IMG/VR virus record: IMGVR_UViG_3300033418_000001
Coordinates: 32,001-96,000 of that record
Direction: 5' to 3' (one strand)
DNA: 64,000 nucleotides
Origin: a virus
Under the pieces are notes generated by a model. The model saw nothing but the letters and a program-made list of their open reading frames with translations, did no database searches and was not told where the DNA came from. How positions within the stretch are numbered: the first letter of the stretch is position 1; each line of letters begins with the position of its first letter. The position numbers and the translations under genes were made by a program. Shown here piece by piece: positions 56,258 to 58,757 of this stretch.

Positions 56258-56646
56258 TGCTCGTCTTTTGCAGATGTCTGCACGGACCCGCCGATGGTCT
56301 TCACCGCGTCCAACTCGGTCTTGACGGGCGGGAACTCCACCTTCTCCACCCACAGCCACAACAGGTAGGCGCACGTCGCCGTCTTGTCCTCATGGCGAGG
56401 CTCCCACGACCGCAGGATCGACGCCACGTGCTTGTACGCCGCCTCGGCGCTGACGCCCTCCTTGGTGTAGAACAGCGTGCCCTGCGGCAGTCCTTCGAAG
56501 AACCACCGGTCCACGACCTTGCACCATGGGTCGGTGCCGTCGCAGAACCTTTCGGGGATGTCATCCGGCGGCAGCAGGGACCGCAACTCTTCCCCGTAGG
56601 CACCGAAGGCGCGAACCGCATCGGTGGTGACTCTTGGCATGAACAT
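56254..56646 (-). CDS. Hypothetical phage protein
   Basis: WFFEGL...SWEPRHEDK..TCAYL; CAAAGGAGTG RBS. Confidence 0.65.
   Translation of the reverse strand: MFMPRVTTDAVRAFGAYGEELRSLLPPDDIPERFCDGTDPWCKVVDRWFFEGLPQGTLFYTKEGVSAEAAYKHVASILRSWEPRHEDKTATCAYLLWLWVEKVEFPPVKTELDAVKTIGGSVQTSAKDEQ
56268..56283. repeat. 16-bp palindrome copy 17 (coding C-terminal tail, VQTSA)
   Basis: TTGCAGATGTCTGCAC. Confidence 0.95.
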
Positions 56647-56734
56647 CAGGCACTCCTTTGCTGACGATGGGATTGCCCCTTACGGGGGCAAGTCGCTTCT
56701 CCATGGCCACTTCACTGAAGACTCACTCTCCGAA

Positions 56735-57231
56735 GAGGGCTTGGTGGTATGCAGCGGTGGGGGAATCAGCAGTCCCGCATCCTCGGGTAGGCGGGGCATC
56801 AGCCCCTAACCACACTTCTAACCCTAAGACTCACCCTGTCTCGCGCTACCGGCATCCTTGTGGGACTCGATGTACCCACTAAGGAGGGCGTCTAGCTGCA
56901 CACTACCAAACCCACTTCGGAGAGCGGGGGGAGGCATCGTAGCTGATAGCCACCCCCACTCCGGTTTCCCCACGATCACTGAGCCTGAGACGAGAACGAT
57001 ATAAGACCGGTGTCCTGAGCCACTAGACGACCCCCCTGTGGTACGCGCTACGCCGCGCAGTGGCAGGAGGGGCGGGATTTGAACCCGCGTTTCCGATCAA
57101 GTTGTGGGCGAACTTGATCCTCAAAATCAGTGCCCACGTCCCAGTGTTCGTGCCTTACGATACCGATGTCTTGGCAATACGACAGTCAGTGACGACTACG
57201 CCAACGACAACGATAACGCTGCCAAGCCCTC
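56735..57231 (-). ncRNA. Putative ~500-nt structured RNA with circularly permuted tRNA-like domain (YrlA-like topology)
   Basis: Only long non-coding gap in the window; ends pair (GAGGGCTTGG/CCAAGCCCTC); internal T-arm+acceptor-CCA precedes acceptor 5' strand+D-arm. Confidence 0.7.
57005..57098 (-). ncRNA. Permuted tRNA-like module
   Basis: GATCGG-AAAC-GCGGG TTCAAAT CCCGC-CCCTCCT-G-CCA, 23-nt linker, AGGGGGG-TC-GTCTAGTGGCTCAGGAC-A-CCGGTC. Confidence 0.8.
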
Positions 57232-58002
57232 CTATGCCTTGAGCGGCGCGAGCAGGATCGCAACCACCTTGTCCGCGATCTTCTCGGTCACCGCTTCCGT
57301 TTCGTTCGCGCGCATCCGCGCCTGCTTGACCTCCACCATCAGGTCATCGACCACCTTGATGGCTTCGGCCTTTTGCAGCGCCGTGCACGCACCGCTTCGC
57401 TTGGTGATGGAGTTCTTCCCCACCACGATGTCCTTGTTCACCGCCGCCACCTGCGCCGGGTGCTTGTCCGTCGCCGGGGACATCTGCACCGGCACCGTGA
57501 CCTTCTCGGTCTTGGTGGTCTCGTCGGGGAACTTGGTCTCCCAGATGCCGACACCCAGATCGCCCGCCTTGACCCAGTGCTTGGTGGCATCGAGCGTCGG
57601 CATCTCGGCATACAGCGCCCGCAGACGCATCAGCCGCGCTTCCAGACCGAGCAGTTCATCCACCGGCAGGCCGGGGAGCAGCACGGTGCCGCGCCACATC
57701 ACGTCGCCCGTCGCCTTGCGATTGGTCGCGTTCTTCTGGTACTGAAGGTCTTCCGCCTTGGCGAAGATGTCGAGCGCGTAGGTGAGCGTGTCGAGGACCG
57801 TGGTGGTCACCGGCTTCTCTTCCCGCGCCGCCGCCTCGATGGCCGCGTTCTCGGGCGTGCCCTCGATCATGGTGAGGGACTTGCTGTGGCCTTCGAAGAA
57901 GTGACCGACGTTCTTGAACTTCTTCAGCGTGTCCTCGTACAGAGCATTCCACGCCCCGGTGGGCGTCTTCTCTGCGGCGAGCAGTTCGTGCAGCTTTGCC
58001 AT
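57232..58002 (-). CDS. Conserved coiled-coil protein adjacent to the ncRNA
   Basis: MAKLHELLAAEK...LPVDELLGLE...PTLD...ATDKHPAQV...QARMRAN; own promoter and RBS. Confidence 0.75.
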   Translation of the reverse strand: MAKLHELLAAEKTPTGAWNALYEDTLKKFKNVGHFFEGHSKSLTMIEGTPENAAIEAAAREEKPVTTTVLDTLTYALDIFAKAEDLQYQKNATNRKATGDVMWRGTVLLPGLPVDELLGLEARLMRLRALYAEMPTLDATKHWVKAGDLGVGIWETKFPDETTKTEKVTVPVQMSPATDKHPAQVAAVNKDIVVGKNSITKRSGACTALQKAEAIKVVDDLMVEVKQARMRANETEAVTEKIADKVVAILLAPLKA

Positions 58003-58042
58003 GGTTCTCACTCCTTTGGTTGGATGACGACAACGAGATGTG

Positions 58043-58070
58043 ATTCTACTACGTGTTTCCGAAGTGTCAA
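58043..58070 (-). promoter_or_regulatory. sigma70-type promoter of coiled-coil/ncRNA unit
   Basis: TTGACA-N16-TAGAAT. Confidence 0.75.
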
Positions 58071-58757
58071 CTACTCCTTCGGGGCAGGCAACTCGATGGG
58101 GGGCTTCTCCCCCTTCAGCACAGCAAGCCCAGTGCGAGACACGATGCTGCTGACGTAAGCCTCCACCTCGGTCTTGGCGTCCTCGGTGACCTTCTCCATG
58201 TGTTCTCCGAACTGCTCCGCGACGAACTTGACGGAGGAGGTTACACCATAGCCCGCCACCTCCAAGGCCATGAGGATTTCCTTCTTCGCCTTGGCCGACA
58301 GGCTAGTGCCCTCGATCATGGTCCGCACCTTGTCCAACCCCGCGTTGGTCTTGAGCAACGTCTTCTTCATCTCCACAGCGAACTGATCCTGCCGCCTCTC
58401 CGGTGGGGGCAAGCCCGGGATGTTGTAGTTGCCCTTCACGGCCAACAGAGTGCAGGGGGTGCCGCTGCCGACGTTGAGCGTGGAGATGAACGTGGCCCAC
58501 TGCGCCTCCGACATCTCCACCTCGGTGATGAGGCCGCGAGCGAAGTGCCAGTCCCGCGACAAGCTGCGATGCAACTCGCTGTGCTTGATTTCGATGCGGA
58601 TGGTGTTGTGGTGGGTGAAGTCGGAAGCGTACAACTGCGTTTGGCCACTCACCCGATGCGCGACGATCTGCGCGAAGGCCGGGTGCGTGGTCACCGTCTC
58701 CGACACCACGGAGGTGCCCTTCTCTGTGACGGGCTTCTCGATGGGCCGCATCGTCAC
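58071..58757 (-). CDS. Hypothetical phage protein
   Basis: HPAFAQI..HRVSG...LYASDF.H...EVEMSEAQWATFISTLNVGSGTPCTL. Confidence 0.7.
   Translation of the reverse strand: MTMRPIEKPVTEKGTSVVSETVTTHPAFAQIVAHRVSGQTQLYASDFTHHNTIRIEIKHSELHRSLSRDWHFARGLITEVEMSEAQWATFISTLNVGSGTPCTLLAVKGNYNIPGLPPPERRQDQFAVEMKKTLLKTNAGLDKVRTMIEGTSLSAKAKKEILMALEVAGYGVTSSVKFVAEQFGEHMEKVTEDAKTEVEAYVSSIVSRTGLAVLKGEKPPIELPAPKE

What the first reader, a model, noticed from the sequence alone, without database searches (positions are those of the whole stretch)
57005..57098. Circularly permuted tRNA-like element with an internal CCA
Seen on the minus strand: the 3' half comes first (ATCGG anticodon-stem strand, AAAC, T-arm GCGGG-TTCAAAT-CCCGC, CCCTCCT-G-CCA ending at 57061). 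A 23-nt linker follows, then the 5' half (AGGGGGG at 57037..57031, TC, D-arm GTCTAGTGGCTCAGGAC, A, CCGGT). Acceptor (7 bp, one G-U) and anticodon stems (CCGGTC/GATCGG) pair fully, but there is no anticodon loop: the stem opens into the rest of a long RNA. Knowledge: this T-acceptor-D order occurs in bacterial YrlA Y RNAs and two-piece tmRNAs. It lacks tmRNA hallmarks (no G3-U70, discriminator G, full D-stem), and no Ro60/TROVE gene is visible in the window. Inference: RNase P and 3' trimming could excise the linker to give a two-piece RNA with a free CCA, acting as a tRNA decoy against anticodon nucleases or a ligand for synthetases, EF-Tu or RelA.
Basis: partly seen in the sequence, partly recalled or inferred. 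Interest (0 to 1): 0.88.

Follow-up and report, generated by a model that had tools for sequence, protein, structure and literature searches.

The report
Phage tRNA-mimic RNA beside DUF7873
The flagged stretch is a real back-to-front tRNA look-alike with no anticodon loop; it is the core of a folded RNA that follows one unstudied phage gene (DUF7873) in many phages, so it probably marks an undescribed RNA-protein unit.

Summary
On the minus strand, 57098-57005 reads anticodon-stem 3' strand, 4-nt variable loop, T arm, 7-nt acceptor 3' strand, G, CCA, 23-nt linker, acceptor 5' strand, D arm, anticodon-stem 5' strand.

It is not chance or decay. A covariance model built from 37 homologues finds the same module beside a DUF7873 gene in 75 of 78 distinct loci. 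Across the alignment 94.7% of cells pair, and all 22 pairs show changes on both sides.

The module sits in a larger RNA, about 310 nt conserved and about 560 nt here. This RNA starts at the DUF7873 stop codon and shares that gene's promoter. It has helices P1-P3 and three tracts with CGU every 6 nt.

It is not a YrlA member: 12 bits against a cut-off of 69, no TROVE gene, no Ro-binding motif. It is not a tmRNA or a true tRNA either. The phage has no tRNA genes. The module's core is closest to tRNA-Glu.

My best reading is a Ro60-independent, YrlA-like tRNA mimic that works with DUF7873 and is probably cut by RNase P. Binding, cleavage and function are all inferred.

This scan has found the same cassette before in over 100 other genomes. 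I found no paper and no Rfam family for it.

The parts
57232..58011 (-). DUF7873 gene (259 aa). It is the constant neighbour of the RNA and its presumed protein partner.
   Evidence: Pfam PF25283 at E 5.6e-62. There are 771 homologues, all named hypothetical. The AlphaFold model (pLDDT 74) has no clear PDB fold match.
58043..58070 (-). Sigma-70-type promoter (TTGACA, 16 nt, TAGAAT) for the DUF7873 + RNA unit.
   Evidence: It matches 11 of 12 positions. It is the only promoter-like site in 56400-58300, and none lies between the gene and the RNA. This is a consensus match only.
57170..57226 (-). Helix P1 (CTTGGC 57226-57221 with GCCAAG 57175-57170). It encloses tract 1 (CGU every 6 nt, five repeats, 57218-57189) and a small hairpin.
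   Evidence: The alignment of 31 homologues shows compensating variants read by eye: TTAGGCAA/TTGCCTAA, GTTGGC/GCCAAC, TCAAGGC/GCCTTGA, TAGGT/ACCTA. Column-wise counting failed because the register varies.
57153..57169 (-). Tract 2b, ACATCGGTATCGTAAGG. This is the conserved CGRTAKCGTRAGG motif between P1 and P2.
   Evidence: It is conserved in alignments A1 and segment A.
57142..57152 (-). Helix P2, 5' strand (CACGA-A-CACTG). It pairs with 56981-56971.
   Evidence: The inner 5 pairs are 92.7% paired over 31 sequences, with CG/UA/GC/AU variants.
57005..57098 (-). Circularly permuted tRNA-like module (the finding): anticodon-stem 3' strand, variable loop, T arm, acceptor 3' strand, G-CCA, linker, acceptor 5' strand, D arm, anticodon-stem 5' strand.
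   Evidence: Read. Covariation. Model R1 scores 83.5 bits, though the window is in the seed. The re-ordered halves give a cloverleaf. The core is nearest to E. coli tRNA-Glu.
57038..57060 (-). The 23-nt linker that closes the acceptor stem. It has an internal 6-bp hairpin. The predicted RNase P site lies between 57038 and 57037.
   Evidence: Read. Linker length is 6-82 nt across 90 units, and positions 74-76 are CCA in 54, CCT in 16 and CCC in 9. Cleavage itself is inferred.
56987..57004 (-). Tract 3 (TTATAT-CGTTCT-CGTCTC), the conserved TATATCGTTAKCGTC motif just 3' of the module.
   Evidence: Alignments.
56971..56981 (-). Helix P2, 3' strand (CAGTG-A-TCGTG). It is followed by the conserved GGGAAACC (56970-56963).
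56919..56962 (-). Helix P3 (GGAGTGGGGG with TCCCCCCGCTCTCC), capped by a hairpin that carries the conserved CAGSUACG loop motif.
   Evidence: The segment C alignment shows the stem varying and the loop core conserved. P3 pairing was read by eye and not counted.
56673..56928 (-). Window-specific 3' extension. It comprises a long hairpin (56928-56721) and a terminal GC hairpin (56691-56673) that lacks a U tract.
   Evidence: The hairpin appears in the MFE fold, and the whole 586 nt folds with z = -4.7. It also appears in the spurious MIR839 alignment. It is absent or much shorter in relatives.

Best explanation
Shown here:
- The element is the tRNA-shaped domain of a conserved structured RNA. 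The core is about 310 nt (57231-56919), and the RNA runs to about 560 nt in this phage.
- The RNA begins at the stop codon of a DUF7873 gene. The only promoter-like site for it is the one upstream of that gene.
- Gene plus RNA form a self-contained cassette that recurs in very different phages, often inside phage tRNA gene clusters.
- The domain is a circular permutation of a tRNA, Glu-like in this clade. The acceptor stem is closed by a linker after N73-CCA. A 6-7 bp anticodon-type stem is fused into a junction (P2) of the larger RNA.

Inferred:
- The module folds into the tRNA L-shape and is handled by host tRNA enzymes.
- RNase P cuts between 57038 and 57037, and 3' trimming stops at CCA (57061), as was shown for M. 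smegmatis YrlA. This would give a two-piece RNA held together by the acceptor stem, the anticodon-type stem and P2.
- DUF7873 binds the rest of the RNA. The likeliest sites are the three tracts with CGU every 6 nt and the conserved P3 loop.
- The resulting particle presents an anticodon-less tRNA 'top half' as a handle or decoy for a factor that reads the acceptor/T-arm/elbow. It would thus be a Ro60-independent counterpart of the Ro60-YrlA system.
For: - Sequence anatomy was read directly.
- Covariation is strong: 94.7% of cells paired, 22 of 22 pairs changing on both sides, 0 of 500 shuffles reaching the observed values, and at most 53% paired in slid controls.
- Model R1 hits next to DUF7873 in 75 of 78 distinct loci that have at least 300 nt downstream. 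These include phages of Ralstonia, Klebsiella, Rhizobium, Vibrio, Arthrobacter, Rhodococcus and Gordonia.
- In five complete phage genomes the best R1 hits are the ones beside DUF7873.
- No other neighbouring gene is conserved across the loci.
- There is one promoter upstream of the gene and none before the RNA.
- P2 is 92.7% paired with covariation, and P1 variants compensate.
- The 586-nt gap folds with z = -4.7.
- GenBank records leave a gap of roughly 440-700 nt after the gene that is unannotated or holds only tiny ORFs.
- Precedent exists for RNase P cleavage and a CCA end on a 7-bp closed acceptor stem (PMC4201824).
- CC is kept at positions 74-75 in 79 of 90 units.
- DUF7873 has an invariant arginine-rich stretch (ARMRAN).
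Against: - I have no transcript, cleavage, binding or phenotype data.
- Co-location does not prove that the protein binds the RNA.
- The loci were gathered through homology to this window's DUF7873, so the 75 of 78 figure is not an unbiased rate. An earlier check in this scan reported a much lower rate with a cruder word-pattern test (note e1-2703945).
- The DUF7873 model has only moderate confidence and no recognisable RNA-binding fold.
- CCA is encoded about as often in true tRNA genes of the same loci (57 of 84). Its retention may therefore reflect ancestry or ordinary processing rather than a special role.
- In many relatives the CC pairs with GG in a linker hairpin, which could hinder RNase P.
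- Three loci lack a detectable module (L034, L072, L116).
Confidence: 0.55

Rival explanations
1. It is a cis-acting 3'-UTR element only. The tRNA-like fold is an RNase P processing signal and exonuclease block that defines and stabilises the 3' end of the DUF7873 mRNA, as in tRNA-linked mRNAs or the MALAT1/mascRNA arrangement. On this reading it has no function in trans and forms no particle.
For: The RNA starts at the stop codon and shares the gene's promoter. There is no U-tract terminator in the region. Chen et al. proposed that the tRNA fold and CCA protect YrlA from exonucleases.
Against: A simple end-protection device would not need two tRNA-like units, three conserved hexamer-periodic tracts, P1-P3 and a conserved P3 loop spread over about 300 nt. 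In L083 the strongest unit lies upstream of the gene.
Confidence: 0.15
2. It is a genuine YrlA-type Y RNA that works with a Ro60/Rsr protein supplied by the host.
For: It has the same T arm, closed acceptor, D arm order as YrlA. The YrlA model touches the module at positions 30-81. Phage YrlA RNAs are known.
Against: RF02553 scores 12 bits against a gathering score of 69. The phage has no TROVE gene. No GNCGAA(N)G Ro-module motif occurs in 56650-57231. The constant neighbour is DUF7873, not Ro60. The host is unknown, so a host Ro60 cannot be excluded.
Confidence: 0.07
3. It is an acceptor-end decoy that does not depend on DUF7873. After RNase P cleavage and trimming, the free CCA end would soak up host defence toxins that modify or cut tRNA 3' ends, such as AbiE/MenT-type nucleotidyltransferases, CapRel-type pyrophosphokinases or acceptor-stem nucleases.
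For: The tRNA 'top half' and N73-CC(A) are conserved while the anticodon loop is absent. The cassette often sits in phage tRNA clusters, which are thought to counter tRNA-directed defences.
Against: This rests entirely on inference. A stoichiometric decoy needs very high abundance. The strict linkage to DUF7873 and the extra RNA domains would be left unexplained.
Confidence: 0.12
4. It is a permuted tRNA gene that is matured into a real tRNA. The flanks would be removed and the outer ends joined, as in Cyanidioschyzon permuted tRNAs or a permuted intron-exon arrangement. RNase P and 3' processing would then open the acceptor end.
For: The 3' half precedes the 5' half. The acceptor region looks like a normal tRNA 3' end, spacer and 5' end. 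The phage has no tRNA genes of its own.
Against: The anticodon-type stem is 6-7 bp and runs straight into conserved non-loop sequence (tract 3, P2). No 7-nt anticodon loop or conserved anticodon can be assembled from the flanks. There is no group I intron or other ribozyme hit at E <= 10.
Confidence: 0.03
5. It is a two-piece tmRNA, or the decayed remains of two tandem tRNA genes.
For: The gene order resembles permuted ssrA genes. Tandem tRNAs can mimic the pattern, and R1 does give weaker hits at tRNA-tRNA junctions.
Against: ARAGORN, which detects permuted tmRNA, finds nothing in the window or the whole genome. No Rfam tmRNA family hit appears at E <= 10. G3-U70 occurs in 0 of 89 units. The D stem is complete. 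The reading frame through the tracts is not conserved (my reading). Decay is excluded by covariation across 37 and more homologues.
Confidence: 0.02

Closest known systems
YrlA (Y RNA-like A, Rfam RF02553), especially the Mycobacterium smegmatis form (Chen et al. 2014, PMC4201824)
   Same: Both are tRNA-like domains in the order T arm, closed acceptor stem, D arm, with the anticodon-side stem opening into the rest of the RNA. Like the M. smegmatis form, this one has a 7-bp acceptor stem, and that form is cut by RNase P and carries CCA in vivo. Phage copies of YrlA exist.
   Different: This RNA is not found by the YrlA model (12 bits against 69). It has no Ro60 gene and no Ro-module motif. It is 3-5 times longer, with P1-P3 and hexamer-periodic tracts. 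It is linked to DUF7873. CCA is already encoded here, whereas CA is added in M. smegmatis. Many relatives carry two units, one of them Leu-like.
Two-piece (circularly permuted) tmRNA of alpha-proteobacteria, some beta-proteobacteria and cyanobacteria
   Same: The acceptor 3' piece with T arm and CCA is encoded before the 5' piece. An intervening segment is removed to give a base-paired two-piece RNA.
   Different: This RNA has no G3-U70, no tag reading frame and a complete D stem. Neither ARAGORN nor the Rfam tmRNA models detect it.
Circularly permuted tRNA genes (Cyanidioschyzon merolae and some archaea); from general knowledge
   Same: The 3' half lies upstream of the 5' half, and the acceptor ends are joined by a short intervening sequence.
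   Different: Those genes encode a complete tRNA with an anticodon loop, restored through a circular intermediate. Here no anticodon loop can be assembled.
tRNA-like 3' end elements (MALAT1 mascRNA, tymovirus TLS RF00233); from general knowledge
   Same: [quoted passage not shown]
   Different: Those elements are not permuted and lie at the transcript's 3' end. The tymovirus TLS model gives only 18.9 bits against 40 here, driven by the T arm.

Membership tests
YrlA / Ro60 Y RNA (RF02553) | Scores at or above the Rfam gathering score of the YrlA covariance model | tested here: not met
   12 bits (E 1.19) over model positions 30-81 at window 57012-57089(-), against a gathering score of 69. It was not listed at all in the E <= 10 scan of the region.
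YrlA / Ro60 Y RNA (RF02553) | Encoded beside, or in the same genome as, a Ro60/Rsr (TROVE) gene | tested here: not met
   PF05731 has no match at E <= 1 in the complete 108-kb phage record, and the control genomes rang correctly. The host genome is unknown.
YrlA / Ro60 Y RNA (RF02553) | Ro60-binding module carrying the conserved GNCGAA(N0-1)G motif | tested here: not met
   The motif does not occur on either strand within 56650-57231.
YrlA / Ro60 Y RNA (RF02553) | tRNA-like domain ordered T arm, closed acceptor stem, D arm | tested here: met
YrlA / Ro60 Y RNA (RF02553) | Physically bound by Ro60 | not testable with these tools
   This needs immunoprecipitation or gel shift.
tmRNA (two-piece) | Detected by ARAGORN or the Rfam tmRNA models | tested here: not met
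   0 genes in the window and in the whole genome. No tmRNA family at E <= 10.
tmRNA (two-piece) | G3-U70 alanine identity pair | tested here: not met
   The window has G3-C70. The pair occurs in 0 of 89 related units.
tmRNA (two-piece) | Tag reading frame with resume codon and stop | tested here: inconclusive
   By eye I saw no conserved frame or stop through the tracts. I ran no formal search.
Canonical tRNA gene | Contiguous cloverleaf with a 7-nt anticodon loop | tested here: not met
   ARAGORN finds none. Rfam tRNA gives 16.7 bits against 29. Only the artificially re-ordered halves give a cloverleaf.
Permuted tRNA gene (Cyanidioschyzon type) | The outer ends together supply a complete anticodon loop and a processing motif | tested here: not met
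   The stem is 6-7 bp and continues into conserved tract 3 and P2. No loop residues are conserved.
DUF7873-associated tRNA-mimic RNA (undescribed; named in earlier notes of this scan) | Permuted tRNA-like unit or units within about 700 nt of a DUF7873 gene on the same strand | tested here: met
   The module starts 134 nt after the stop codon. The same arrangement holds in 75 of 78 loci.
DUF7873-associated tRNA-mimic RNA (undescribed; named in earlier notes of this scan) | Shared scaffold: P1 at the stop codon, hexamer-periodic CGU tracts, P2 closing the module, P3 with a CAGSUACG loop | tested here: met
   P2 was counted. P1 and P3 were read by eye.

The most novel reading that the evidence does not exclude
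After RNase P cleavage and 3' trimming, the cassette yields a protein-bound, multi-piece RNA that displays one or two anticodon-less tRNAs with free CCA ends. The Leu-like units found in many relatives have A73 in 22 of 24 cases, and from general knowledge LeuRS does not read the anticodon. These units could therefore be aminoacylated. The phage would then carry a charged tRNA mimic that cannot decode. It could act as a sink for defence toxins that target tRNA acceptor ends, or as an amino-acid donor or sensor held on a DUF7873 scaffold.
Probability: 0.15. Interest if true: 0.85.

Novelty: new variant of a known kind. Interest (0 to 1): 0.62.

Why it matters
If DUF7873 and this RNA form a particle, it would be a second, Ro60-independent class of tRNA-mimic ribonucleoprotein. 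It is carried by many phages of Proteobacteria and Actinobacteria, including cultured jumbo phages, and often sits inside their tRNA gene clusters. That would give a function to a widespread domain of unknown function. It would also add a large structured RNA family that I did not find in Rfam. Finally, it would open a testable link between phage tRNA biology, host tRNA-processing enzymes and possibly tRNA-directed defence. Several cultured phage-host pairs carry the cassette, so ordinary experiments can test all of this.

Tried and rejected
- **Rfam:** the gathering scan of the window and of 12 related loci gave only true tRNAs. The E <= 10 scan of the region gave only sub-threshold noise.
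- **DNA similarity:** blastn of the 586-nt gap against GenBank phages found no match. The family is too diverged for DNA search, and protein-guided retrieval worked instead.
- **Tertiary pairing:** I tested whether tract 2b pairs with the P3 loop. The mean longest complementary run was 5.0 nt for cognate pairs, 4.8 for non-cognate pairs and 4.7 for shuffled loops. The 9-bp match in the window therefore looks accidental, and I rejected the idea.
- **Leader or tag peptide in the tracts:** start codons and frames are not conserved across relatives (my reading). I rejected this reading.
- **Split group I intron flanks (permuted intron-exon idea):** there was no ribozyme hit and no anticodon-loop residues. 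I rejected this.
- **DUF7873 fold:** the Foldseek PDB search gave nothing at E <= 0.001. VIA-align gave a best Z of 8.2 on helical hairpins only. The atlas search returned only its own family. PHROGs had no family.
- **Literature:** searches for DUF7873, permuted tRNA plus phage, YrlA plus phage, RSL1 ORF270 and tRNA-like phage ncRNA found no description of this cassette.
- **E. coli blastn with the Glu-like 5' half:** no match, because the query is short and the database is large. I replaced it with a local comparison.
Full report
**1. Observation**

The window is bases 32001-96000 of a 108,443-bp IMG/VR virus record that CheckV rates complete. I read the minus strand of 57400-56700 directly.
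- GATCGG: 57098-57093
- AAAC: 57092-57089
- T arm: 57088-57072
- CCCTCCT: 57071-57065
- G: 57064
- CCA: 57063-57061
- 23-nt linker: 57060-57038
- AGGGGGG: 57037-57031
- TC, then the D arm: 57028-57012
- A, then CCGGTC: 57010-57005

The acceptor stem is 7 bp (with G4-U69) and the anticodon-type stem is 6 bp (one G-U). No anticodon loop is present.

ARAGORN finds no tRNA or tmRNA in the window or in the whole phage genome. Rfam finds nothing at gathering scores. At E <= 10 it gives only sub-threshold T-arm-driven matches: tRNA 16.7 bits against 29, and tymovirus TLS 18.9 against 40. When I join the 5' half to the 3' half with a 5-nt filler, ARAGORN draws a canonical 76-nt cloverleaf.

**2. Context**

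The module lies in an ORF-free gap of about 585 nt. On one side is a 259-aa gene (57232-58011, minus strand) that matches Pfam DUF7873 at E 5.6e-62. On the other side are a small ORF and a primase gene, and a helicase follows.

A near-consensus sigma-70 promoter (TTGACA, 16 nt, TAGAAT) sits just upstream of DUF7873. No promoter-like site lies between the gene and the gap. The gap folds far better than shuffled sequence (z = -4.7).

**3. Homologues**

DNA search found nothing, so I used the DUF7873 protein to fetch loci.
- IMG/VR gave 9 loci.
- GTDB genome contigs, all labelled MAGs, gave 10 loci.
- Metagenomes gave 80 loci.
- GenBank phages gave 75 records: Ralstonia phiRSL1, Klebsiella/Serratia jumbo phages, Rhizobium RHph phages, Vibrio, Gordonia, Arthrobacter and Rhodococcus phages, and cyanophages.

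In the annotated records the gene is 'hypothetical'. It is followed by a gap of roughly 440-700 nt that is unannotated or holds only tiny ORFs, and it often lies inside a tRNA gene cluster.

A simple scan for 'T arm, 7-nt strand, N, linker, complementary 7-nt strand' found a permuted unit downstream of almost every copy. Many loci had two units 150-230 nt apart.

**4. Covariation**

I aligned 37 single-unit homologues (A4) and imposed the cloverleaf-derived structure.
- 94.7% of 814 cells are standard pairs, against 65.5% in shuffles.
- All 22 pairs change on both sides.
- 0 of 500 shuffles reach the observed values.
- Sliding the partners by 1-3 columns drops pairing to 38-53%.

The acceptor helix was selected by my scan, and the T stem partly so. 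The anticodon-type stem (86.5%) and the D stem (91.9%) were not selected.

**5. Linkage to DUF7873**

A covariance model built from A4 (R1) finds the module in loci that the scan had missed. In total it hits beside DUF7873 in 75 of 78 distinct loci that have at least 300 nt downstream.

The three exceptions are as follows.
- In L034 an inserted small ORF displaces the RNA, which then starts just before the contig ends.
- L072 has no detectable module.
- L116, a Microcoleus phage, shows only a T-arm match.

Four actinophages whose DUF7873 is only 28-34% identical each carry two units. In five complete phage genomes the top R1 hits are the ones beside DUF7873. Weaker hits fall in tRNA clusters, where tRNA-tRNA junctions mimic the pattern.

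No other gene around the window's copy recurs in the other loci. The conserved unit is therefore gene plus RNA. The sample was drawn through the protein, so it is not an unbiased estimate of the association.

**6. The larger RNA**

Segment alignments of 31 single-unit relatives show a shared scaffold. In order it contains:
- helix P1, starting at or next to the stop codon (window CTTGGC 57226-57221 with GCCAAG 57175-57170; variants compensate);
- tract 1, with CGU every 6 nt (five repeats, 57218-57189);
- a small hairpin, which occupies the place of the first tRNA-like unit in two-unit RNAs;
- the motif CGRTAKCGTRAGG;
- helix P2 (window 57152-57142 with 56981-56971), whose inner 5 pairs are 92.7% paired with covariation;
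- the module itself;
- tract 3 (TATATCGTTAKCGTC);
- GGGAAACC;
- helix P3, capped by a loop with a conserved CAGSUACG core.

The window adds a lineage-specific extension of about 250 nt (56928-56673).

I tested one tertiary-pairing idea, tract 2b with the P3 loop. It failed against non-cognate and shuffled controls.

**7. What kind of tRNA is copied**

I used 37 E. coli K-12 tRNAs fetched here and 84 phage tRNAs from the loci. I compared the D arm plus variable loop plus T arm of each unit with each tRNA.
- The window's unit and 17 others of its clade are closest to tRNA-Glu. They share UC-GUCUAG..GGC.CAGGAC-A and a 4-nt variable loop.
- The upstream unit of two-unit RNAs is closest to tRNA-Leu in 23 cases. 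The Klebsiella-phage copy shares 19-20 identical bases with E. coli tRNA-Leu genes.
- 22 of 24 Leu-like units have discriminator A.
- The other units are generic class I tRNAs.

This is a crude nearest-neighbour test on a limited reference set.

**8. Comparison with known families**

- **YrlA.** The topology is the same, and M. smegmatis YrlA is a precedent for RNase P cleavage and a CCA end. Membership fails: RF02553 gives 12 bits against 69, there is no TROVE gene, and there is no GNCGAA(N)G motif in the RNA.
- **tmRNA.** It is not detected. No unit has G3-U70 (0 of 89), and the D stem is complete.
- **Permuted tRNA genes.** No anticodon loop can be assembled from the flanks.
- **Decayed tandem tRNAs.** Covariation excludes this.

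**9. The CCA**

Positions 74-76 are CCA in 54, CCT in 16 and CCC in 9 of 90 distinct units. Linkers come in two forms. Some are short and A/U-rich, mostly ending in U at position -1. Others are hairpins in which CC pairs with GG just before the 5' strand. In the window the CCA is unpaired and is followed by a separate 6-bp hairpin. True tRNA genes in the same loci encode CCA in 57 of 84 cases. The CCA therefore fits ordinary tRNA-type end processing but does not prove a special role.

**10. The protein**

DUF7873 has 771 or more homologues, all unnamed. An AlphaFold model built from a 33-sequence alignment has mean pLDDT 74. It shows helical hairpins and long beta hairpins. No PDB fold stands out, and the atlas returns only its own family. 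Invariant residues include an arginine-rich ARMRAN stretch. RNA binding is an inference.

**11. Mechanism**

- *Shown:* a conserved, covarying, tRNA-shaped domain inside a conserved RNA that is linked to DUF7873. The promoter scan points to one shared transcription unit.
- *Inferred from the YrlA precedent and tRNA enzymology:* the L-shaped fold, RNase P cleavage between 57038 and 57037, trimming to CCA at 57061, and a two-piece RNA.
- *Inferred from linkage only:* a DUF7873-RNA particle.
- *Speculative:* the target is a factor that reads the acceptor/T-arm/elbow. A decoy for anticodon nucleases is unlikely without an anticodon loop.

**12. Prior notes and novelty**

Earlier notes of this scan describe the same cassette in more than 100 other genomes. 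They reached the same reading, and a later check priced the RNP claim low for lack of experimental data. Two first-reader notes on this same window already pointed to the promoter, the hexamer tracts and the long stem. I confirmed the promoter and the tracts.

I found no paper and no Rfam family for the RNA. I rate it a new variant of a known kind: a YrlA-like tRNA mimic with a different scaffold and a different presumed protein partner.

Noticed in passing
window 57096-57118 (minus strand): A hairpin, ATCAAGTT/AACTTGAT, lies just upstream of the module and overlaps the first three bases (ATC) after the G of the anticodon-stem 3' strand GATCGG. L032 has the same hairpin. L001 has a compensated version (AACAAGG/CCTTGTT). 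This may be a subclade-specific alternative pairing with the base of the tRNA-like stem.
   Followed up: partly
window 56721-56928 and 56735-56744 (minus strand): The window-specific long hairpin reuses CTCTCC from the P3 3' strand. Its far side (CCAAGCCCTC) is complementary to the P1 5' strand region GAGGGCTTGG (57230-57221). The extension could therefore compete with both P1 and P3. Relatives have a much shorter hairpin here.
   Followed up: partly
whole genome G000 (108,443 bp): The phage encodes no tRNA or tmRNA gene at all (ARAGORN). In many other phages, by contrast, the cassette sits inside a tRNA gene cluster.
   Followed up: yes
L026:4066-4189 (Ralstonia phage phiRSL1, between ORF269 and ORF268): The Rfam tRNA model hits at 41.3 bits over a span of 124 nt. 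No tRNA is annotated there. It may be an intron-containing or otherwise unusual tRNA.
   Followed up: no
W03 (Rhizobium phage RHph_TM30, NC_070966.1) 139495-139729: Two further R1 hits (48.1 and 39.5 bits) lie about 5 kb from the DUF7873 gene. I did not resolve whether they are extra permuted units or tRNA-tRNA junctions.
   Followed up: no
L034:885-935: Directly after the DUF7873 stop lies a lone tRNA 3'-half-like piece (T arm, acceptor strand, CCA). A small ORF follows it. Only then does the start of the RNA appear (P1 strand and tract 1 at about 1236), where the contig ends. It looks like an insertion into the cassette.
   Followed up: partly
window, whole: The heptamer GNCGAAG occurs 159 times, against 48 +/- 7 expected from shuffles. 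None of these copies lies in the RNA. Codon usage is the likely cause.
   Followed up: no
L083:1245-1343 (also L085, L086): In this lineage the strongest permuted unit (57 bits) lies upstream of the DUF7873 gene. A weaker one (27 bits) lies downstream. The order of gene and RNA is therefore not fixed.
   Followed up: partly
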